In this document: positions 2,831-14,059 of the stretch, piece by piece
Numbering within the stretch: the stretch's first letter is position 1
Layout of the letters: each line of letters starts with the position of its first letter
Translations under genes and position numbers: made by a program
Notes under the pieces: generated by a model
Told to the model about the DNA's origin: nothing
What the model saw: the letters and a program-made list of their open reading frames with translations, nothing else
The model's database searches: none
DNA from: a virus
Taxonomy: Duplodnaviria; Caudoviricetes
IMG/VR virus record: IMGVR_UViG_3300037721_000031
Location: 160,001 to 224,000 of that record
Strand: one strand, 5' to 3'
Length of the DNA stretch: 64,000 nucleotides

Positions 2831-3794
2831 CGTACCACTATAGTTTTCACTACCGAGGATGACTTTTCTCAAATGCGACTACAGTCATCTTGGCTGTGCT
2901 AGCCATTTCTTTGGAGACTTCAACGATCTTCTATTAGGAAGACCTCCATCTATATAAATCCAAATACTCTCGTTTGTGGTCTGGACTATGCCTTCATCCA
3001 TTGTTACTCGGCGGCAATCATATCGGCATTGTCACTCCATTTTACTGGGGATATTTCCAATATAGCTATCCACCCTAGACAAAGCACATGTTGTTCATTC
3101 CAACAACACCCGCTCTTTAAGCCTACACTTGGATGATCTCCATCTAGTCTCTACACCTTCAAGAATAATCTACGTACCTTCACAGGTATGTGTATATCAT
3201 TACTAATTCAGATACTAAAGATACCGAGAGTCGAACTCGGACCATTCCACAGCGGAGTCTACCGCTTGACCTATATCTCTAGTACAGTGCTGTGTTCACC
3301 TTCTGAATTAATACATTCAATACATCAATAGCCGGAGGAGCCCTACTCCATGGACGAATCATAGGTTTCGAAGCTACTATCGTCTGTTTATTGTCATACC
3401 TGCCGGCATGACTCAACACTCTACGTTCTTTTAATCGCTACTGAAAAATTACTCAAGCTTGGCTCGGCGTTGACATGGTAAACTTATTACATAAATGGAT
3501 CATCACTTTTGGATGTTTCCATTTTGTTAGGTCCAAGTCTACTTTAGTGTTCGCCGAATTTGAAGATATTCACCTAACAGGGTATAGGATTCTCACCTAG
3601 TACGCTTAGAGTTTGACCTCAATCGTTTCCTGCTATTTTACCGTCTCTCGATTGCATCGTTTCGTACATAGCTTCTTTTTGAAGGAAGCTACATATATCC
3701 CCAACGCATTTTTCGGTGGTGCTCATGTTTCTGCTGGATAGTCATGACTCGTGCTCACATAAGTATTCGCGAATCACTAATACCCATTCAGCAT
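2831..3794 (-). ncRNA. Group I intron (IB-like, ORF-less, large peripheral inserts)
   Basis: P4 UCGGCG/CGCCGA, P3 AUCUUCA/UGGAGAU, P7 GACUA/UAGUC, P8 CAUCCA/UGGAUG, P9.0 ACCAC/GUGGU, terminal G at 2831; core is clear, 5' splice site is inferred. Confidence 0.85.
3215..3282 (-). ncRNA. tRNA-like domain embedded in intron L6
   Basis: 9-bp acceptor-like helix, U8-A9, D-arm GGTC-AAGCGGTA-GACT, perfect T-arm CCGAG-TTCGACT-CTCGG, stunted anticodon arm. Confidence 0.75.
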
Positions 3795-4925: not shown

Positions 4926-5004
4926 TGGTAGGCCGGGTGAGATTCGAACTCACTATCGCTGGCTTATGAGGCCAGTGCTTATACCAGGCTTATGCTTCCG
5001 GCCC
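4926..5004 (-). tRNA. tRNA(CAT), Met or Ile2
   Basis: Anticodon arm CTGGC-CTCATAA-GCCAG; acceptor GGGCCGG/CCGGCCT with C4-G69 and C5-G68 favours Ile2; atypical A8 and D-arm. Confidence 0.85.
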
Positions 5005-5455: not shown

Positions 5456-5716
5456 CTATTGCGGAATCACTACTGTGAAGTTTTCACCACAGTATCCACC
5501 TATCAAATGCTTTCCTTTGGAGCGACCAAATCCAGGGTCGGTTCCTTTACAATAATCCTTGTAACTTCCCTTGTACAACGTCATCGTGTTATCACCACCA
5601 TAGTCTGGATCGGACCACACAAAGTTACCAAGAGCTGTTTCAATGAAGAAGTGCATTCCCCACATGTAGGTGAAGTCACCGACTGCGTTAGCAATTGCTT
5701 CTTTACTAATAGCCAT
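5456..5716 (-). CDS. Hypothetical phage protein
   Basis: 86-aa ORF with SD GGAG. Confidence 0.75.
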   Translation of the reverse strand: MAISKEAIANAVGDFTYMWGMHFFIETALGNFVWSDPDYGGDNTMTLYKGSYKDYCKGTDPGFGRSKGKHLIGGYCGENFTVVIPQ

Positions 5717-5735
5717 GTTGATCTCCTAAAGTTTG

Positions 5736-5825
5736 TGGAGGAAGTGGTGAGATTCGAACTCACGGAGCCATCTCTGACCCAACAGTTTTCAAGACTGTCT
5801 CATTAAACCACTCTGACACACTTCC
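5736..5825 (-). tRNA. tRNA-Ser(TGA)
   Basis: Anticodon arm ACAGT-CTTGAAA-ACTGT, long variable arm, CCA. Confidence 0.95.
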
Positions 5826-5836
5826 AAAAATAAAAC

Positions 5837-6854
5837 TGGATTCGATGATAAAAGAAATAGTGACGGCCACGACACTGAACAATCGTCAGCGCTGCCGTCT
5901 CTACCCATAACAGGCAGCTTTACTTCCACTAAGACCAACTATGGTCTTAGTGGAAGTGGATTGTCGATCACATTCCCAATTGTAGTCAGGAATTATCAGC
6001 TCTGGCCAGATCCCTCCGGACAGCATTTGACATCATGTCTTGTGGACTAGACATCAAATAAAAGGCCATACACACAGGTCCCAGAATACTAACCTAAATC
6101 TCAGAGAACTTCTGATGAGGCTACCAACCTCAGCACTCTCACGAGTGTCAGACTCTTGCAAGATCTAATAGCTAAATATTCCTGGAGTCAAGATGATGGA
6201 AGAATATGATTAAAGTCATACCCGTATTCGTCTGTGGATGGCGAAACTGTTTACATCTATCGGATAAAAGACTACGTACAGACTCATTACTGTTACTCGG
6301 CTGTAGTATTACCGGCAACGTGTTTATCACTACGCTACCGATTCTATAAGCCTACATATTTGCCTGTACGTAGTAAAAACTGTTGAAAACACAATCTCAG
6401 TATCACGAGTAAATCTCGCCGTCTCGAAACGGCAAGACTGGTTGTTCGAGCAACCATCCAATATAAAGCTTCAGCAATATACCGAACAACTCATGATCTA
6501 GAGGCTGCATTCTCGAACCATTAGTTTAGTGGCTTCAACACTTGCGACTTTCGTCCAAGCTCCACCCTGCATCACCTAGGTTCAGACTTACAACTTGGCA
6601 GAAACAAGGAGTACCACCCCCTACGAATCTACCCATAGTGTTTCGATTAGTTGGTGCTAATCATCAGACCATATACCGTATTGAGAGTCTCAGTGTGTGT
6701 CTCCTGGACACACAACTCTCATAGTACATGACTCTTTAACACTTAAGATCAAATGACTCTCGGAAATACTCTCTGAGTCGTCTAACAAATTATAATGAGT
6801 TCGAATATTTTCTTACACATTTCAATCAAGAACAGCATACTTCTACACTATTCC
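5837..6854 (-). ncRNA. Large (~1 kb) structured ncRNA ending in CCA
   Basis: No minus-strand ORF of 60 aa or more; over 12 hand-paired helices; 5' GGAATAGTG pairs with 3' CACTATTTC; ends TCGAATCCA-GTTTT. Confidence 0.75.
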
Positions 6855-6860
6855 ACTTAT

Positions 6861-6876
6861 GTCATATGTGTTTGAA
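6861..6876 (-). promoter_or_regulatory. Putative phage promoter TCARACACA-TATNAC
   Basis: TCAAACACATATGAC; same motif upstream of genes at ~37575, 43305 and 52415; resembles the phiKZ early TATTAC core. Confidence 0.55.
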
Positions 6877-6887
6877 ATTTCTTTGAT

Positions 6888-7031
6888 TCAAGAAATAAGA
6901 TACAGATAACCAGCGAATGCTGTTAGACAAACAATCTTGACATAATGTTTACGGAGGATACCGTTAGCAGCCACCAATGTCAATCCACAGATATTTTTAC
7001 CAACCATAATTACAGTCTTAGTCAAACTCAT
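6888..7031 (-). CDS. Small hydrophobic protein (47 aa)
   Basis: My translation MSLTKTVIMVGKNICGLTLV...; below the ORF track cutoff. Confidence 0.5.
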   Translation of the reverse strand: MSLTKTVIMVGKNICGLTLVAANGILRKHYVKIVCLTAFAGYLYLIS

Positions 7032-7088
7032 TTCGTTGTGCATATGCATCCTTAAGAGTACTGCAGTAGATTACTAGCTATTACTTCA

Positions 7089-7412
7089 TCAAAGAGTTTT
7101 AAGTCGTTGCTTGACTTCTTGATACATTATACTCACACATGCAGAAATTGACCCCTCATAATCTGAAAGTTTATCCCTGAGCCAGGTGTTTAGTCCTGGA
7201 CTAAACTTTTGTTCTTCTCGAAGGTTATCAAATTCTTGCACAACCTTCATTCCAACTTTATGAAATTTCTCACAAACATCTTCGGCATGCGCAATCAGCA
7301 TTTCTTGTATATCGAAGCCGTCATACCTTTGAGCCTCTTTTATTGCTGAAAATGCAACTTTTTGCACATCAATTGCATGTCGTACCAGCTTCTTCAACTT
7401 CTTCATTCCCAT
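7089..7412 (-). CDS. Hypothetical protein
   Basis: Codirectional ORF. Confidence 0.7.
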   Translation of the reverse strand: MGMKKLKKLVRHAIDVQKVAFSAIKEAQRYDGFDIQEMLIAHAEDVCEKFHKVGMKVVQEFDNLREEQKFSPGLNTWLRDKLSDYEGSISACVSIMYQEVKQRLKTL

Positions 7413-7445
7413 GATATTTCCTAGTTAAACTCATTAAAGCGTGGC

Positions 7446-7769
7446 TTAAAACAAGCTATCTGCTGTCCCTTTGTGGTCTACCTTATTCTCTTTACTATCG
7501 CGGTAACAAAACACAATAACGTAAGCAAGATTAGACAAGGTGAATGCAGCATATAACGTTATAATAACTGCCACTGCATTATTCGTATAAACAACTGGAG
7601 ATTCTTCCGTGATACCTAAATGGTATCTGATGATCTGTGCCAATATAAGAACACACGGTGCTAGCGCTAAAGTCCAACTAGTAGCCAAAGCAAACAACAT
7701 TGTTTTACTTAGTCTTTTCCTTAAAGCTTTCTGATTAGCTAAAAGATTATTGCAGGTAGAGTTATTCAC
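7446..7769 (-). CDS. Hypothetical membrane protein
   Basis: Two hydrophobic segments. Confidence 0.7.
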   Translation of the reverse strand: MNNSTCNNLLANQKALRKRLSKTMLFALATSWTLALAPCVLILAQIIRYHLGITEESPVVYTNNAVAVIITLYAAFTLSNLAYVIVFCYRDSKENKVDHKGTADSLF

Positions 7770-8185
7770 AACGTCACCTTCCAGTTAGGTGATTGAAGAT
7801 CATGTTCTTTTTCAGAATACAGATGATTCCGAAATGTGATGTTGTAAACTGTATTCAGCTGCGCGGTGGAATGTACGAAGCTGATATCTGTTGTACCATT
7901 GATGAAATCAATTTCTTTGACTACTACCTCAAACATCAATCCAACATCAAATTCTCTTTGGAACGAGAGCTCGGCGTATTCCCTGAGCATTGTGTATAGT
8001 GGAACGAATGCAATTCTCAGCTTTGACACTCCGGGGTCATCAGTCTTGAACGAATTCATGACTGACATACATTCATGAATCGCTCGTGTCAGTCGCTTCG
8101 ATTCTGACTGAGAGATATCGACAACTCTAAAATTCTTCTTCATGATCTTGCGATTACTGGGCAATTGTGGGAGGCCGTGTTGCAT
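7766..8185 (-). CDS. Hypothetical protein
   Basis: Codirectional ORF with 4-nt overlap. Confidence 0.7.
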   Translation of the reverse strand: MQHGLPQLPSNRKIMKKNFRVVDISQSESKRLTRAIHECMSVMNSFKTDDPGVSKLRIAFVPLYTMLREYAELSFQREFDVGLMFEVVVKEIDFINGTTDISFVHSTAQLNTVYNITFRNHLYSEKEHDLQSPNWKVTL

Positions 8186-8224
8186 GATTGATTTCCTTTT
8201 TTACAGTGGATAACCGGTACTACT

Positions 8225-8608
8225 TTACTGTTGTAGTTCACCGTGAAAGATTACAGACTTACCTAGACTCTGTAGATAGGTTATGACTAGTGGTGCGAAT
8301 AAATGACGATGGCAGTAATCTCCTGCTTTGCAATAGCAGGCTAATGCCATTAGTTTATTGTCTGCTAATTTCCTCCACTCATCTAAGTTATAATCCGAAG
8401 AACTTATAACCTTGTCGTAGTACTGCTTAGTATATTCTTCTTTAGACATTAAACCTGCTTTATAAGCTCGCAGGTTCTCCCACGTAGGAGCGAATGAATT
8501 GATACCTGATTTTACCGTTACATCAATCAGTGCGATTCCGTTATCACGAGCTAATCGCCAAGCACCTATCTGAATGGTCCAGATATGATAATCTTTATCT
8601 TGAGACAT
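8225..8608 (-). CDS. DUF488/YeaO-like protein
   Basis: FAPTW..L..YK.G....EEY...Y and LACYC....YCHRH motifs. Confidence 0.7.
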   Translation of the reverse strand: MSQDKDYHIWTIQIGAWRLARDNGIALIDVTVKSGINSFAPTWENLRAYKAGLMSKEEYTKQYYDKVISSSDYNLDEWRKLADNKLMALACYCKAGDYCHRHLFAPLVITYLQSLGKSVIFHGELQQ

Positions 8609-8671
8609 GATTTAACTCGTATATAGTTTTACACTACATGAATTGTAGTTTATTGTATTTTCTATACTACG

Positions 8672-8719
8672 GCATAAACAGTAACGAAGTTCCAATACGG
8701 ACTTCGTTACTGTTTATGC
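8672..8719. terminator. GCATAAA-flanked perfect hairpin terminator
   Basis: 19-bp arms followed by T-run; member of a window-wide family. Confidence 0.75.
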
Positions 8720-8728
8720 TCTTTTTTG

Positions 8729-9031
8729 TTATACCCTGTCGACTGACGAATTAAGTGCAACATACCCTTTAATCTCAAAACCACTAGCGCAATAATGCAG
8801 AAGATCACTATTTGTGACGAAATCTTCGTGCTTCAGAACAACGCTGTCGAACATACCGTCATAGTAAACTTTTATTGTAGTGTCTTTTTGTGAAACTACA
8901 GATATGTGGACCCAGTTTCCTTCTTCAATACGTTCCAGTAAAGTTCTTGATTTAAGTAAAAGAGCTTTACATACATTCTTAAACATTTGCTGTTGAGATA
9001 CAGATGTATTATAACGAAGACAGAGTTCCAT
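8729..9031 (-). CDS. Hypothetical protein
   Basis: Codirectional ORF. Confidence 0.65.
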   Translation of the reverse strand: MELCLRYNTSVSQQQMFKNVCKALLLKSRTLLERIEEGNWVHISVVSQKDTTIKVYYDGMFDSVVLKHEDFVTNSDLLHYCASGFEIKGYVALNSSVDRV

Positions 9032-9044
9032 AACGTTAACTCCT

Positions 9045-9467
9045 TTACGGGCTACCCAGCATTTTTCCAGTTGGATCAGGACATCCTAATCGTGATACTT
9101 TCAGAGCTTCTTCCAGATCTTTAACTACTACTCCCTCAGGAGTACACCAACCCCAAACCTCGTTAGCGTGCTTTTCAACAGCGAGCGGGTTATCATCAAT
9201 CCAAATATTTATTCGAATGCCGAGAGATTCAGTTACTTTACGTTTAGCTTGCCGTCCGGTACAGATAATACCATCTACTTCTTTCAGGAAGTGATCTGGG
9301 ATAGCTCTGTTAGGAAAGTTAGGATCATTAACTTCGCTTTCATAACGCATAGTCACTACGTAGACTTTATGACCGCTAGCTCGAGCAAGTCTTACGAACA
9401 TGAGCCAGAGATTAATGTCCTCAGATACAGTACCATCATAATCTAGGCCGATAGTGAGTGTCTTCAT
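9045..9467 (-). CDS. Minimal HAD-superfamily phosphatase
   Basis: IGLDYDGT motif I, VVTMR motif II, WIDDNP motif IV. Confidence 0.8.
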   Translation of the reverse strand: MKTLTIGLDYDGTVSEDINLWLMFVRLARASGHKVYVVTMRYESEVNDPNFPNRAIPDHFLKEVDGIICTGRQAKRKVTESLGIRINIWIDDNPLAVEKHANEVWGWCTPEGVVVKDLEEALKVSRLGCPDPTGKMLGSP

Positions 9468-9513
9468 AATTACCTGGTTAAGTATGAGAGAAAAGTGGTA
9501 AATTAGTAAATTG

Positions 9514-10227
9514 TCAGTGTTCGTAACTGATTGGTATCACTTCAAATTCTTCATCATCGTCAACATACTCGTCAGCACGATGAAGTTCAGACTCGTCAGC
9601 GCCAAGAGTTTCAATGAGTTCAGCGTCTGCAGATATAGCGCTTAAGTTAAGCATGATGCTGATAAGTTGATACTTATTATTAGAATTATAAAACAGTATA
9701 ATCAACTCACCATCGTTAGTTTCATGCGTATCAAAAAAGACGTAACTGTGCTGCTGAGTACTGTTAATTACTCCGATGATCGCATAAATGAAATCAGAAT
9801 TTTGACACTCATGTCTTCGAGCATGTTCATACATTACTTCTTGAGGATCGCTGTCTAAACGCTCATATCTTTCGAACTCTAAAGGCTTATCTAAAAAAGT
9901 AACAGACATGAAAATTCTGTTGTGCGGAGAATTCTCATTATCGTCACGACAACGTCGAATGTCACTAGAGAAGAAAGCCTGTTCTCCAACATTGTTAGGA
10001 GTTAATTCTCGTCGACTGTCACCATCAACACATAGCCAATCAGTCATGTGTATTGAACAATTACGAAAAAAACTAACACCTGTTTGAATAATTGGGATGG
10101 CTTCTCTAGTGCATGCATTTGGTATAAAACTTAATAGCTCATCCAGTCTGTCATTCTTGACATCTTTAGAGTTCAGAGCGTAATCAAGCATATCTGAAAG
10201 ATTCATGTAAACTCCATGTCGTAGCAT
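9514..10227 (-). CDS. Hypothetical protein with acidic tail
   Basis: 237-aa codirectional ORF. Confidence 0.7.
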   Translation of the reverse strand: MLRHGVYMNLSDMLDYALNSKDVKNDRLDELLSFIPNACTREAIPIIQTGVSFFRNCSIHMTDWLCVDGDSRRELTPNNVGEQAFFSSDIRRCRDDNENSPHNRIFMSVTFLDKPLEFERYERLDSDPQEVMYEHARRHECQNSDFIYAIIGVINSTQQHSYVFFDTHETNDGELIILFYNSNNKYQLISIMLNLSAISADAELIETLGADESELHRADEYVDDDEEFEVIPISYEH

Positions 10228-10323
10228 TTTCTAGTATCTTGTTGAAAAGTATATGACTGTACAGTCCTACATAAAGTAAGTAGTCGTCATATACTTTCAT
10301 GCTCTAAACATTTAATTTATAAG

Positions 10324-10581
10324 TCACCCGTTATAATTCACGGCTTCTTGATTAAAGTACTCACTAAAACGTGAGAACGAAATCATTTCAAGCATAAATT
10401 CGCATTTATTTTTAAAGTCTTCGTATGCTTCAAAATAATTATTAAAATTAGCATTTTCATCGATAGTAAAGCGACTACCAGAAAATAGTACTTTAAAATC
10501 GTAACCTGTTCCTGTTTCTTTCGAAAGTAAACAGACATTATCACCCAGTAGCTCAAACTTTGAAATAAGCTTAAACGTCAT
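10324..10581 (-). CDS. Hypothetical protein
   Basis: Codirectional ORF with SD. Confidence 0.65.
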   Translation of the reverse strand: MTFKLISKFELLGDNVCLLSKETGTGYDFKVLFSGSRFTIDENANFNNYFEAYEDFKNKCEFMLEMISFSRFSEYFNQEAVNYNG

Positions 10582-10598
10582 GTAGGACCTTCTATATC

Positions 10599-11204
10599 TT
10601 AAAATGGCAACTTATGTTCGTCCATCTGAGGACAACAGTAATTCTGTCTATTACCATAATGTTCATCGATCTCTTGCGTATCTAGAGTAGAATTTGTATC
10701 GTAAAAATGAACTCTAGGTATAACGATCTTACACTCAGCTGTGATAAGATTTACTTCCATCAAGAATCTACGGTAATGGACGTTAGCCTTACTGTCTGAT
10801 TCACCACCAACATGCCACATTAAGGTGTCGGAGTTTGTACGATGAAACTCTTTACTAGAGTCTTCTCCTGGAAGAAGGGTATCTGCCCACTTAAATGTAT
10901 CTTCTAGTGACACATTTTCTGTTTTAGGAATACAAGACCAGAAAGCTAACTTCCAAGCATTATCTTGTAATTGTGGGTTTTGTTTTACTAACGGCTTCAC
11001 TCTGCAGCCAGATTTTCTATCACCGTTATGAGCCCATCCGCGGTCAGTATATGTGGCCTTAGGGTCTGCATCACGCATAGGCCGGTACCCGTCAACAGGC
11101 CAATGATGGTAATGAGGTTTATCAGTCCACAGTAAGAAGTGACGCCATCCACCCATCATAACTTCATGGTTATATGGCCTAGTAATATATATTAGCAAAT
11201 TCAT
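10599..11204 (-). CDS. Hypothetical protein
   Basis: 201-aa codirectional ORF. Confidence 0.7.
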   Translation of the reverse strand: MNLLIYITRPYNHEVMMGGWRHFLLWTDKPHYHHWPVDGYRPMRDADPKATYTDRGWAHNGDRKSGCRVKPLVKQNPQLQDNAWKLAFWSCIPKTENVSLEDTFKWADTLLPGEDSSKEFHRTNSDTLMWHVGGESDSKANVHYRRFLMEVNLITAECKIVIPRVHFYDTNSTLDTQEIDEHYGNRQNYCCPQMDEHKLPF

Positions 11205-11242
11205 CTCCTAGTAATAAGTCAGCAAAACGTCAAGATACGTTA

Positions 11243-12169
11243 TCATACACAATCATCCTGACAGGAGCTAACTTCCAAATTTTGCAGAAGAATACCGTAG
11301 TCTTTATCAAGGAATTCATTAAACTTATTTAAGAATGCTGAAAACTCCTTGTTTATAAGGCGATTGACTAAGTTAATATCCATATTAGATTTATTAAGAT
11401 TATAGATATTTTGCACAGTCACATTGTACAATTGCTCTAGAGCTGTAGGTGTCTTACGAATTAAAGAGATTCTGTGACGTGTTTGAATTTCTGATGTCTG
11501 ACGGTTCATCCCATCTTTCATCTTCTTCAGATCTTCTGCCGAGTATGTCACTTGTGTTTGTACAAAACAAATCATACGCTGACAAAAGCTAGTAAGATAC
11601 AGTGGTGGAGAAGCCACATCAGGCTCAGGAATGACTCCTCGAAGAGCATGCGTGATTGTCCAGTATTTCACACCATCTCTAACTATACGGTACCATACTT
11701 CAAATACCTTATTAGAATTCTTTTCTTTGAGAACCAGTTTTTCTTTTGTAATGATCATGACCTTATCATGACCTACAGTCATTTCCAACCTTACTTCTTT
11801 AGACTGGTTTACTTTAGATACGGTGATAGCAATAGCGCTGATGAAGCCGGAGCTTCCTGGTTGTACGCTTGTATCGTAACGACGACCGGCAGACATGTAC
11901 GCTTGATGAAATACAGTGCTGTAAATGGTGATATCACCTTCCACAATGTCCTCTGCCCACTGGATAGCGCCAACAGGATAGTTACATCCTTCTTCAGTGA
12001 ACCATTCTGCCTGAGGCTCCAGCATTACCTCCATTGGAAGACAACGTTGCTTTTGAAGCTCTACAAACTTCTCAACACTAATCATCTTACTCATGGCGAC
12101 ATGAGCAGATACTTGATTTACGGATGGATTGTTAGAAACTTGATTAGTAGTCATGATTTTCCACAGCAT
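11243..12169 (-). CDS. Hypothetical protein
   Basis: 308-aa codirectional ORF. Confidence 0.7.
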   Translation of the reverse strand: MLWKIMTTNQVSNNPSVNQVSAHVAMSKMISVEKFVELQKQRCLPMEVMLEPQAEWFTEEGCNYPVGAIQWAEDIVEGDITIYSTVFHQAYMSAGRRYDTSVQPGSSGFISAIAITVSKVNQSKEVRLEMTVGHDKVMIITKEKLVLKEKNSNKVFEVWYRIVRDGVKYWTITHALRGVIPEPDVASPPLYLTSFCQRMICFVQTQVTYSAEDLKKMKDGMNRQTSEIQTRHRISLIRKTPTALEQLYNVTVQNIYNLNKSNMDINLVNRLINKEFSAFLNKFNEFLDKDYGILLQNLEVSSCQDDCV

Positions 12170-13059: not shown

Positions 13060-13842
13060 TTACTTTCTGTATCGGAGAATGATGTCTTTAACAATTGCAT
13101 TCCTGACTATTTCGTCTTCATCAAACTCACAGACACAATAGTCTTGCATTCCACGCAATCTCTCCAACATATCCACTAGGCCAGATGTTTCAGTTATGTC
13201 TATCTGTCCAATATCACCGTCCACAACTACAGTGCAGTCGTTACCTATACGGGTCAAGAAGGTCAGCATTTCCTTATTAGTAGTGTTTTGTGCTTCATCC
13301 AGAATCACAAAAGCATTCTCAAATGTACTACCGCGGAGATATTCCAGAGGAGCTATTTCAATCTGTCCGTTTTTAATCATGTTCTCTACATGACTGACAC
13401 CCAGACGCTTCTCAAGAATTACACGAACTGGCTTAAAGTACGGAGCCCACTTATCTTCGATCTCACCAGGCAAGAAACCCAGACCTCTACCTGATTCAAC
13501 AGCTGGCCTACAGATAATGATTTTAGATATCTTCTTTTCCATTAACAGCATTGACGCTGTAGTTACAGCTATGTGCGTTTTACCGGTACCAGGGGGACCT
13601 ATACCTATTGTTAAGGTATGTGACAGAATCATCTGGTGATATGTTTTTTGCTTCGGGGTCTTGTACTGAATTGGTCCTGTCTGTATGCTCTCATTGCGCA
13701 ATGAAGCGATATATGAGTGTGACTGCTGATTACCTATACCTGAGACAATGTTTCTTCCTTCACGCTTTGCTGATCGCTGTTCGCGACGCTCTGCTCTTGT
13801 GATGACACTGGAAGACCGTTTACCCCGTTGGAACTTTGCCAT
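13060..13842 (-). CDS. phoH: PhoH-like ATPase
   Basis: GPPGTGKT, RPAVESG..LGFLPG, LRGSTF, ILDEAQN motifs; start set at MAKFQ. Confidence 0.95.
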   Translation of the reverse strand: MAKFQRGKRSSSVITRAERREQRSAKREGRNIVSGIGNQQSHSYIASLRNESIQTGPIQYKTPKQKTYHQMILSHTLTIGIGPPGTGKTHIAVTTASMLLMEKKISKIIICRPAVESGRGLGFLPGEIEDKWAPYFKPVRVILEKRLGVSHVENMIKNGQIEIAPLEYLRGSTFENAFVILDEAQNTTNKEMLTFLTRIGNDCTVVVDGDIGQIDITETSGLVDMLERLRGMQDYCVCEFDEDEIVRNAIVKDIILRYRK

Positions 13843-14059
13843 AGAATGATACTTTCTATAAAGACTACCGCGATGCAAAATGAGATCCGAACCCACTCAT
13901 TCACAGTATCTATGCAACCGTTTTATCTTAATAAAAAGTACTTAATTCTATGATCCGACGCGATTATGAATTTGGTATCTTTATCTTATTTAGTAAAAAA
14001 TATTCTTTAAAATAGACTTTAATAGCCAGGGTAGTTTCCCTGGCTATTATGCCGTAATA

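What the first reader, a model, noticed from the sequence alone, without database searches (positions are those of the whole stretch)
5837..6854. ~1-kb ornate non-coding RNA with paired ends and a tRNA-type CCA terminus
Seen: the longest non-coding stretch in a gene-dense window, packed with helices. Examples are a perfect 16-bp stem at 5922-5957 with no U-tract, an 11-bp long-range stem, GAC-GAAA-GTC, CACTC-GTGA-GAGTG, TGGTTG/CAACCA and GTGTGTC/GACACAC. A promoter-like TATGAC at 6866-6861 puts +1 near 6854, where GGAATAGTG can pair with CACTATTTC (5862-5854). The 3' end is CCA followed by GTTTT, the same trailer as tRNA-Ser(GCT), tRNA(CAT) and the scaffold RNA. Known: GOLLD (~800 nt) and ROOL (~600 nt) are tRNA-associated giant phage RNAs. 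I cannot match this sequence to either from memory. Inference: a new or highly divergent giant RNA class.
Basis: partly seen in the sequence, partly recalled or inferred. Interest (0 to 1): 0.9.

Follow-up and report, generated by a model that had tools for sequence, protein, structure and literature searches.

The report
New giant structured phage RNA
A jumbo phage carries a gene for a roughly 1,000-base non-coding RNA with a conserved fold at the head of its tRNA cluster; it matches no known RNA family, so it looks like a new class of the rare giant phage RNAs (like GOLLD and ROOL) whose job is still unknown.

Summary
The stretch 5826-6880 (minus strand) is a real gene for a structured non-coding RNA.

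- **Fold.** It folds far better than shuffles (z = -8.6), and better on the minus strand than on the plus strand.
- **Homologues.** I fetched homologues from seven metagenome contigs, representing 3-4 lineages. RNA length ranges from about 955 to 1,640 nt.
- **Conservation.** A 288-nt core and the 3' domain are 86-97% identical between lineages. The flanking protein genes drop to 50-65%.
- **Covariation.** In the core, 9 of 100 predicted pairs show compensatory double changes, against 2.0 in shuffles (0 of 500 reach 9). In the 3' domain it is 7 of 53.
- **Coding.** No small ORF survives across the lineages.
- **Known families.** No Rfam family matches, GOLLD, ROOL and the introns included, even at E ≤ 10.
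- **Ends.** A promoter-like motif that recurs nine times in the genome, always on this strand, precedes the RNA. A tRNA-Ser or a degenerate tRNA follows it directly.

Best reading: a new class of giant tRNA-island phage RNA, probably released by RNase P. It may self-associate through two invariant complementary loops. Its function is unknown and the family is narrow.

The parts
6888..7049 (-). Upstream neighbour, not part of the RNA: a small conserved 47-53-aa hydrophobic ORF that sets the 5' boundary.
   Evidence: It is conserved as a protein at only 45-51% identity between lineages. It is followed by a terminator-like hairpin in the homologues.
6845..6877 (-). Promoter-like motif (TTTCA[AG]..ACATAT.AC followed by a TGGAATAG-like box). 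The transcript start is inferred at about 6855-6837.
   Evidence: It is conserved in all seven homologues that include this end. It occurs 9 times in the 266-kb genome, all on the minus strand and all but one (148605-148621, inside a 433-aa ORF) intergenic. At 7 of the 8 other sites it lies 49-163 nt upstream of an ORF.
6725..6855 (-). 5' domain, moderately conserved (73-77% nt identity), with local helices.
   Evidence: 21 predicted pairs, 3 of them with compensatory changes.
6673..6731 (-). Variable peripheral hairpin (contains the seven-base arms at 6695-6713).
   Evidence: It is the same in L008. In L015/L016, L017/L018 and L022 it is replaced by a 150-200-nt structured extension at the same site.
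6385..6672 (-). Conserved core of ten helices. It includes the GNRA hairpin (loop 6552-6549) and a long G.U-rich stem (6514-6489 with 6410-6385) that closes a junction of three hairpins.
   Evidence: - Nucleotide identity is 93.8%, 88.5% and 85.6% to L008, L015 and L017, against 65% and 51% for the flanking genes in L017.
- Of 100 predicted pairs, 98.8% of cells are paired.
- 9 pairs show double compensatory changes, against 2.0 +/- 1.2 in shuffles (0 of 500) and 0-1 in slid controls.
- The covariance model scores 148.9 bits on the minus strand and 34.7 on the plus strand.
6440..6455 (-). Invariant 5-bp hairpin with hexaloop CUCGAA (6450-6445).
   Evidence: Stem and loop are invariant in all six sequences. 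The loop is the exact reverse complement of UUCGAG in the next hairpin.
6412..6439 (-). 12-bp hairpin with loop UCGA (6427-6424; UUCGAG at 6428-6423 if the closing U.G pair opens).
   Evidence: Four stem pairs carry compensatory double changes in L015, while the loop stays invariant.
6271..6384 (-). Variable linker region. Its sequence is replaced between lineages.
6058..6263 (-). Optional 206-nt structured module bounded by a 7-nt direct repeat (CTTTTAT on the RNA strand, at 6270-6264 and 6064-6058). It contains the GTGA-capped hairpin.
   Evidence: It is cleanly absent from L008. It is 97-99% identical in L015/L016 and L022, and a diverged version is present in L018. Short contigs covering it occur in freshwater and sediment runs.
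5826..6030 (-). 3' domain of seven helices. It includes the 16-bp hairpin 5957-5922, which is a variable peripheral stem. The last ~96 nt are 97% conserved.
   Evidence: - Of 53 predicted pairs, 97.5% of cells are paired.
- 7 pairs have compensatory changes, against 2.9 +/- 1.3 in shuffles (1 of 500) and 0-2 in slid controls.
- In L008 the hairpin keeps pairing through U.G wobbles. In L015 it is replaced by a longer stem.
5736..5825 (-). tRNA-Ser(UGA) directly abutting the RNA's 3' end. It is the inferred RNase P site that releases the RNA.
   Evidence: ARAGORN and Rfam call it. The same junction occurs in L008 and L014, and a degenerate tRNA sits at that place in L015.

Best explanation
It is a gene for a large, highly structured non-coding RNA of a family not yet described. 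The RNA is about 1.0 kb here and about 0.95-1.64 kb in relatives.

It is carried by a small clade of uncultured jumbo phages, distantly related to Xanthomonas jumbo phages.

**Shown**
- The RNA lies on the minus strand.
- It has a conserved modular fold: 5' domain, variable hairpin, strongly conserved core, a mosaic of optional modules, and a conserved 3' domain.
- It is under stronger purifying selection than the neighbouring protein genes.
- It does not encode a conserved peptide.
- It matches no Rfam family.

**Inferred**
- It is transcribed from its own copy of a recurring phage promoter-like motif, as the first product of the tRNA operon.
- RNase P cleavage at the 5' end of the abutting tRNA-Ser frees it.
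- It then acts in trans as a stable folded RNA particle, as GOLLD and ROOL do.
- It may self-associate through two invariant, mutually complementary hairpin loops (CUCGAA and UUCGAG).

I put about 0.9 on 'genuine conserved structured ncRNA of a new family'. The lower figure given as the confidence covers the whole statement, including the trans-acting particle mechanism.
For: - **Fold.** z = -8.6 on the minus strand against -5.1 on the plus strand.
- **Rfam.** No hit at the gathering threshold or at E <= 10, in the window or in the homologues.
- **Homologues.** They come from seven metagenome contigs, fetched through the flanking proteins.
- **Conservation.** The core is 86-94% identical and the 3' end 97%, while the flanking genes are 51-90%.
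- **Covariation.** Core: 9 of 100 pairs compensatory, 0 of 500 shuffles reach this, slid controls give 0-1. 3' domain: 7 of 53 pairs, 1 of 500 shuffles.
- **Peripheral stems.** They are replaced by different sequence at the same sites.
- **GNRA loop.** It is kept as GNRA (GAAA to GAGA in L022).
- **Strand.** The covariance model scores 148.9 bits on the minus strand and 34.7 on the plus strand.
- **Coding.** Every small ORF on the RNA strand is broken by a frameshift or stop in at least one lineage.
- **Promoter-like motif.** Nine copies, all on the minus strand, all but one intergenic.
- **tRNA junction.** A tRNA or degenerate tRNA abuts the 3' end in every homologue that reaches it.
- **RNA libraries.** Short contigs of close relatives of the core occur in a soil metatranscriptome and two wastewater cDNA libraries. 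No contig from those runs lay on the protein genes at 7200-12000.
- **Loops.** The complementary loops are invariant in all six sequences.
Against: - **Transcript.** No direct evidence exists for a discrete transcript or for its ends. The RNA-library evidence consists of assembled contigs only. The absence of flanking genes there could simply reflect their divergence beyond the 85% mapping threshold.
- **Covariation depth.** It rests on 3-4 lineages, so many core helices are invariant and therefore untested.
- **Long-range pairing.** No long-range pairing tying the domains into one fold is supported. The region could be several independent RNAs or a processed leader.
- **Loop complementarity.** It is only suggestive: 3 antiparallel candidates against 1 in a parallel-orientation control.
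- **Breadth.** The family was not found in four cultured Xanthomonas jumbo phages, four other IMG/VR records, or any of the collection scans by exact-match pattern. It is narrow.
Confidence: 0.5

Rival explanations
1. It is a cis-acting structured 5' leader of the tRNA operon. In this reading the RNA has no trans function. It controls transcription, processing or stability of the downstream tRNA-Ser, the 86-aa gene, the HNH gene and the tRNA-Met transcript, and it is degraded after RNase P cleavage.
For: It lies directly between the promoter-like motif and the first tRNA, with no terminator before the tRNA. The junction with a tRNA is conserved.
Against: One kilobase of ornate, modular structure that is more conserved than the flanking genes is far beyond any known tRNA leader. 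In L015 the downstream tRNA is degenerate, yet the RNA is fully conserved and even enlarged. Contigs of the core alone appear in RNA libraries.
Confidence: 0.17
2. It is an anti-defence or host-takeover decoy RNA. The folded RNA would bind and sequester a host protein, for example a tRNA-targeting nuclease, a ribosome-associated factor or an RNA-binding immune sensor, during infection.
For: The context is a tRNA island. Phage tRNA sets are thought to counter host tRNA depletion (my own knowledge, not tested here). Strong selection acts on the core. GOLLD has been reported to pull down ribosomes (10.1101/2024.12.08.627333, read).
Against: No tRNA-like element is detectable inside the RNA. The CCA is not conserved. 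No partner protein is indicated by the conserved neighbours. The adjacent ORFs have no informative Pfam or PHROG hits.
Confidence: 0.15
3. It is a degenerate or ORF-less self-splicing intron, another mobile ribozyme, or a mosaic of such elements that has lost its host gene.
For: - The neighbouring RNA at 3173-3694 gives a weak group I hit (22.8 bits, E = 0.006).
- HNH homing-endonuclease genes lie nearby.
- Insertion sites are variable. They include a 206-nt module bounded by a 7-nt direct repeat and a 736-nt insert in one relative.
- Two short colinear words are shared with the neighbouring RNA.
Against: - No group I or group II model matches, even at E <= 10.
- No interrupted host gene or exon-like flanks are present.
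- It has its own promoter-like motif and ends at an intact tRNA.
- The GNRA hairpin is too short to be a group II domain V (8 bp with a 1-nt bulge, read).
Confidence: 0.07
4. It is non-functional spacer, decayed genes or small ORFs, or a DNA-level element such as an origin or packaging site.
For: Many small ORFs of 32-52 aa can be drawn in the region. The plus strand also folds better than shuffles (z = -5.1).
Against: - The core is more conserved than the flanking genes.
- Compensatory changes occur, as do A-U to G.U changes that only make sense on the minus-strand RNA.
- All small ORFs are broken in some lineage.
- The covariance model is strongly asymmetric between strands.
Confidence: 0.03

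Closest known systems
[quoted passage not shown]
   Same: Both are very large (over 800 nt) ornate non-coding RNAs encoded by phages or prophages next to tRNA islands. Both combine strongly conserved and variable regions, lack a known protein partner and have no known function (10.1101/2024.12.08.627333).
   Different: No sequence or structure match to the Rfam model, even at E <= 10. Here the conserved parts are a central core and the 3' end, separated by optional modules, rather than a conserved 3' half. The hosts are environmental jumbo phages. Multimer formation is untested.
ROOL RNA (Rfam family; rumen-originating, ornate, large)
   Same: Both are phage or prophage RNAs near tRNA islands with a complex multi-helix fold and unknown function. 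ROOL assembles into an RNA-only cage, which is the model for the mechanism proposed here.
   Different: ROOL is smaller, by my recollection ~580 nt. There is no covariance-model match. The secondary structure is unrelated. Self-assembly is inferred here only from two complementary invariant loops.
Stable 'species 1' and 'species 2' RNAs of the phage T4 tRNA gene cluster (my own knowledge, not checked here)
   Same: These are non-tRNA stable RNAs co-transcribed with phage tRNAs and released by tRNA-processing enzymes. Their function is still unknown.
   Different: They are only about 120-140 nt, against about 1,000 nt here. No homology was tested or expected.
Group I intron-like RNA 2 kb downstream in the same island (window about 2831-3794)
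   Same: It lies on the same strand in the same tRNA island. It is large and ORF-free, it is also represented in the soil metatranscriptome, and it shares two short colinear words with this RNA.
   Different: It gives a weak Intron_gpI hit. The RNA studied here gives none, and the core model R1 finds no second copy in the genome.

Membership tests
GOLLD RNA | Matches the Rfam GOLLD covariance model (conserved 3' region with its pseudoknots) | tested here: not met
   cmscan of the window at the gathering threshold, and of 5700-7100 at E <= 10 with lax filters, gave no GOLLD hit. Scanning the homologue loci (at E <= 1) gave the same result.
GOLLD RNA | Encoded by a phage or prophage, often beside tRNA genes | tested here: met
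   The contig is a 266.5-kb viral record. The RNA abuts tRNA-Ser inside an island of eight tRNAs.
GOLLD RNA | Forms a homo-oligomeric (14-mer) cage | not testable with these tools
   This needs purified RNA and cryo-EM or SEC-MALS. Only loop complementarity was seen here.
ROOL RNA | Matches the Rfam ROOL covariance model | tested here: not met
   No hit at E <= 10 in the window stretch, or at E <= 1 in the homologue loci.
ROOL RNA | Phage or prophage location near a tRNA island | tested here: met
Group I intron | Conserved P3-P9 catalytic core detectable by the Intron_gpI model | tested here: not met
   No hit in 5700-7100 at E <= 10. The neighbouring element at 3173-3694 does give 22.8 bits, so the search can detect weak cores in this island.
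Group I intron | Interrupts a host gene, with exon flanks | tested here: not met
   The 5' flank is a terminator-like hairpin plus a promoter-like motif after a complete small ORF. The 3' flank is a complete tRNA-Ser.
Group II intron | Domain V and other domains detectable by the Rfam group II models | tested here: not met
   No hit at E <= 10. The GAAA hairpin has only 8 bp with a 1-nt bulge.
   CCA in the window is TCA in L008 and TGA in L015/L016. No tRNA model or ARAGORN hit lies within 5826-6880.
Conserved structured non-coding RNA (generic) | Secondary structure conserved with compensatory changes, strand-specific, and not coding | tested here: met
   covariation; strand; no conserved ORF.

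The most novel reading that the evidence does not exclude
This is a third, structurally unrelated class of giant phage tRNA-island RNA. It would assemble into an RNA-only homo-oligomer (a ring or cage). Assembly would run through the invariant, mutually complementary CUCGAA and UUCGAG loops, which sit on stems of unequal length (5 and 12 bp). Lineage-specific optional modules would decorate the outside. That would make cage- or scaffold-forming RNAs a recurrent, convergent invention of tRNA-carrying phages.
Probability: 0.2. Interest if true: 0.9.

Novelty: new variant of a known kind. Interest (0 to 1): 0.72.

Why it matters
Only a handful of bacterial and phage RNAs above 500 nt with unknown function are known. 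GOLLD and ROOL, both linked to phage tRNA islands, were recently shown to build RNA-only nanocages (10.1101/2024.12.08.627333).

An independent ~1-1.6-kb class in the same genomic niche would show that giant structured RNAs are a general accessory of tRNA-rich phages. It has a different fold, a very strongly conserved core and swappable peripheral modules.

It would also offer:
- a new target for cryo-EM;
- a fresh comparative handle on what these RNAs do;
- a natural example of modular growth of a large RNA, since the same core carries from about 955 to 1,640 nt.

Tried and rejected
- **Rfam.** cmscan at the gathering threshold on the whole window, at E <= 10 on 5700-7100, and at E <= 1 on five homologue loci gave only tRNAs and noise.
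- **GenBank phages.** Distant-mode blastn of 5700-7100 matched only the tRNA-Ser.
- **Other phages with the 86-aa protein.** Synteny loci L004-L007 and L009-L013 carry no homologue of the RNA by blastn, nhmmer or model R1.
- **Flanking proteins as bait.** The search for related loci with the 107-aa and 308-aa proteins found nothing in viral contigs.
- **Exact-pattern scans.** Invariant core and 3' blocks gave zero hits in viral contigs (3 scans), metagenome contigs (2) and genome contigs (1). Near relatives may be masked in those collections.
- **Cultured relatives.** R1 found nothing in Xanthomonas jumbo phages RTH11, LucasX, XacN1 and Xoo-sp13.
- **Long-range pairing.** The 5'-3' closing stem and other long-range helices proposed by a three-sequence alifold have uncompensated breaks. 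I rejected them as unsupported.
- **Group II domain V.** I considered this reading of the GAAA hairpin and rejected it because the stem is too short and no model matches.
- **Type-B 3' module.** The alternative 3' module seen in L014 and L015 has no copy in this genome.
- **Technical.** A first 300-nt sliding z-score scan timed out. A lighter one ran: mean z = -3.4 inside the RNA against -1.0 in the coding background.

Full report
**What is there**

The window is bases 160001-224000 of a 266.5-kb IMG/VR viral contig, a jumbo phage estimated 98% complete.

Between a small ORF (7049-6888) and tRNA-Ser(UGA) (5825-5736), all on the minus strand, lies about 1.06 kb with no ORF above 52 aa on that strand.

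- The minus strand folds at -356.9 kcal/mol against -289.8 +/- 7.8 for dinucleotide shuffles (z = -8.6).
- The plus strand folds at -275.8 (z = -5.1).
- In 200-nt windows the region averages z = -3.4, against -1.0 for the coding sequence beyond 7100.

**Not a known family**

cmscan against Rfam 15 finds only tRNAs at the gathering threshold. Within 5700-7100 at E <= 10 it finds nothing credible: no GOLLD, ROOL, OLE, RNase P, tmRNA, or group I or II intron. The homologues give the same result. A distant blastn search of 50,697 GenBank phage records matched only the tRNA.

**Relatives**

A search of public sequencing runs showed that parts of the stretch occur in root, soil, freshwater, wastewater and sediment samples. 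Laying contigs on the window showed conserved blocks alternating with replaced blocks. One relative carries a 736-nt insert.

I fetched real homologues through the flanking 86-aa, 107-aa and 53-aa proteins:
- L008, L015 and L016 are full length.
- L017, L018 and L022 lack the 3' part.
- L021 has the 5' end only.
- L014 has a variant 3' domain plus the tRNA-Ser.

RNA length from the promoter-like motif to the tRNA is about 955 nt (L008), about 1,030 nt (window), about 1,400 nt (L016) and about 1,640 nt (L015). L015's 1.8-kb gap has no ORF above 53 aa on the RNA strand.

**Architecture**

1. A promoter-like motif at 6877-6845.
2. A 5' domain, 73-77% identical between lineages.
3. A peripheral hairpin (6731-6673) that three lineages replace with a 150-200-nt extension.
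4. A core at 6672-6385.
5. A variable linker.
6. A 206-nt optional module (6263-6058) bounded by a 7-nt direct repeat and cleanly absent from L008.
7. Further optional hairpins in L008, L015 and L016.
8. A 3' domain (6030-5826) whose 16-bp hairpin is itself a variable stem.

**Selection**

Against L017, the core is 85.6% identical, including a 17-nt hairpin extension. The adjacent 107-aa gene is 65% identical and the 53-aa gene 51% at the DNA level. Against L008 and L015, the core is 93.8% and 88.5% identical and the last 96 nt are 96.9% identical. The small upstream protein is only 45-51% identical.

**Structure is conserved, on this strand**

- RNAalifold on six core sequences predicts 100 pairs in ten helices.
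- 98.8% of cells are paired.
- 9 pairs carry double compensatory changes, against 2.0 +/- 1.2 in shuffles (0 of 500) and 0-1 when partners are slid by 1-3 columns.
- One 12-bp hairpin carries four compensatory pairs between the window and L015, while its loop stays invariant.
- The 3' domain has 53 pairs, of which 7 are compensatory (1 of 500 shuffles; slid controls give 0-2).
- The 5' domain has 21 pairs, of which 3 are compensatory.
- Many changes are A-U to G.U or G-C to G.U, and the 24-bp core stem holds 6 G.U pairs. On the plus strand these would be mismatches.
- A covariance model of the three-hairpin junction scores 148.9 bits on the minus strand and 34.7 bits on the plus strand.
- The GNRA loop GAAA becomes GAGA in L022.

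**Not coding**

All nine small ORFs on the RNA strand are broken by frameshifts or stops in at least one lineage. The indels are not multiples of three.

**Ends**

The upstream motif TTTCA[AG]..ACATAT.AC, followed by a TGGAATAG-like box, occurs nine times in the genome. All copies are on the minus strand and all but one are intergenic; that copy (148605-148621) overlaps the first codons of a 433-aa ORF. At seven of the eight other sites it lies 49-163 nt upstream of an ORF. It is conserved upstream of the RNA in every homologue that includes this end. I read it as a phage promoter, which places the start at about 6855-6837.

At the 3' end the RNA runs without a terminator into tRNA-Ser (window, L008, L014) or into a degenerate tRNA (L015, 37.7 bits to a tRNA-clan model). 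RNase P cleavage is therefore the likely maturation step. This is an inference.

The proposed end-closing stem loses two pairs in L008 without compensation, and its 5' arm belongs to the promoter-like motif. No other long-range pairing is supported.

**Expression hints**

A soil metatranscriptome (X4) holds a 233-nt contig on 6570-6760 with 2 differences, and another on the neighbouring large RNA (2913-3139). Two wastewater cDNA libraries (X10, X11) hold contigs on 6468-6605, 6625-6746 and 6633-6774. None of these runs gave contigs on the protein genes at 7200-12000.

This is only suggestive. These are contigs rather than reads, X10 and X11 may contain DNA, and diverged coding flanks would fall below the 85% mapping threshold.

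**Mechanism**

The closest analogues are GOLLD and ROOL. Both are giant ornate phage RNAs beside tRNA islands. Their function is unknown, and both form RNA-only cages (10.1101/2024.12.08.627333).

In the core junction here, two adjacent hairpins carry invariant loops: CUCGAA on a 5-bp stem and UCGA/UUCGAG on a 12-bp stem. The two loops are exact reverse complements, and each contains the palindrome UCGA. The stems are of unequal length and have no linker between them, which makes an intramolecular kiss unlikely. I therefore propose intermolecular kissing and self-association.

The statistical support is weak: 3 antiparallel candidates against 1 in a parallel-orientation control. This is a hypothesis to test, not a finding.

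**Breadth**

The family is narrow. Model R1 and the pattern scans found no member in four other IMG/VR jumbo phages that carry the 86-aa protein, in four cultured Xanthomonas jumbo phages, or in the viral, metagenome and genome collections. The Xanthomonas phages were chosen because RecJ is about 50% identical to those of RTH11 and LucasX. The tools warn that near relatives may be masked in those collections.

**Verdict**

This is a genuine, conserved, strand-specific, modular structured RNA of about 1 kb that belongs to no described family. It is of the same general kind as GOLLD and ROOL but unrelated to them in sequence and fold. Its function is unknown.

Noticed in passing
window 2831-3794 (minus); Rfam hit at 3173-3694: A second large ORF-free RNA lies in the same island. 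It gives a weak group I intron match (22.8 bits, E = 0.006, below the gathering score of 50). It is also represented by a 225-nt contig (2913-3139, 4 differences) in the soil metatranscriptome.
   Followed up: partly
genome coordinates 243645, 227061, 212414, 203306, 166861, 158178, 148605, 21211, 15897 (all minus strand): A recurring 17-nt promoter-like motif, TTTCA[AG]..ACATAT.AC, is followed by a TGAAATA-like box. It lies upstream of ORFs in intergenic regions and is probably a phage-specific promoter class.
   Followed up: partly
window 6888-7049 (minus): A conserved 47-53-aa hydrophobic ORF always sits just upstream of the RNA. It is followed by a terminator-like hairpin in the relatives. 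It has no Pfam hit.
   Followed up: partly
window 6058-6270 (minus): A clean 206-nt presence/absence module inside the RNA is bounded by a 7-nt direct repeat. It looks like either an insertion with target duplication or a microhomology deletion. The module is 97-99% identical between lineages whose neighbouring linker sequence is unrelated.
   Followed up: partly
window 6347-6356 and 6291-6301, against 3118-3127 and 3002-3012: Two short words (10 and 11 nt) are shared, in the same order, between this RNA and the neighbouring group I-like RNA. On their own they are marginal (E = 1.1 and 0.27). They are kept in L008 and lost in L015.
   Followed up: partly
L015 12227-12313 and 12345-14104: In one lineage the tRNA-Ser after the RNA is degenerate (37.7 bits to a tRNA-clan model). 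It is followed by an extra 262-aa ORF with no Pfam hit and by an HNH endonuclease gene.
   Followed up: no
L008 864-2717 (also L020 and the P0004 contig): In some relatives PhoH is 617-618 aa, against 278 aa here (13060-13896) and 260 aa in L015. It carries a faint LAGLIDADG hit, which suggests an intein or homing-endonuclease insertion.
   Followed up: no
window 4929-5004 (minus): A tRNA found by Rfam (51.4 bits) was missed by ARAGORN. The homologous position in L008, L015 and L016 is called tRNA-Met(CAT).
   Followed up: no
window 8601-8800 (minus): A local folding z-score of -5.5 falls in or near the short intergenic gap between the genes ending at 8608 and 8729.
   Followed up: no
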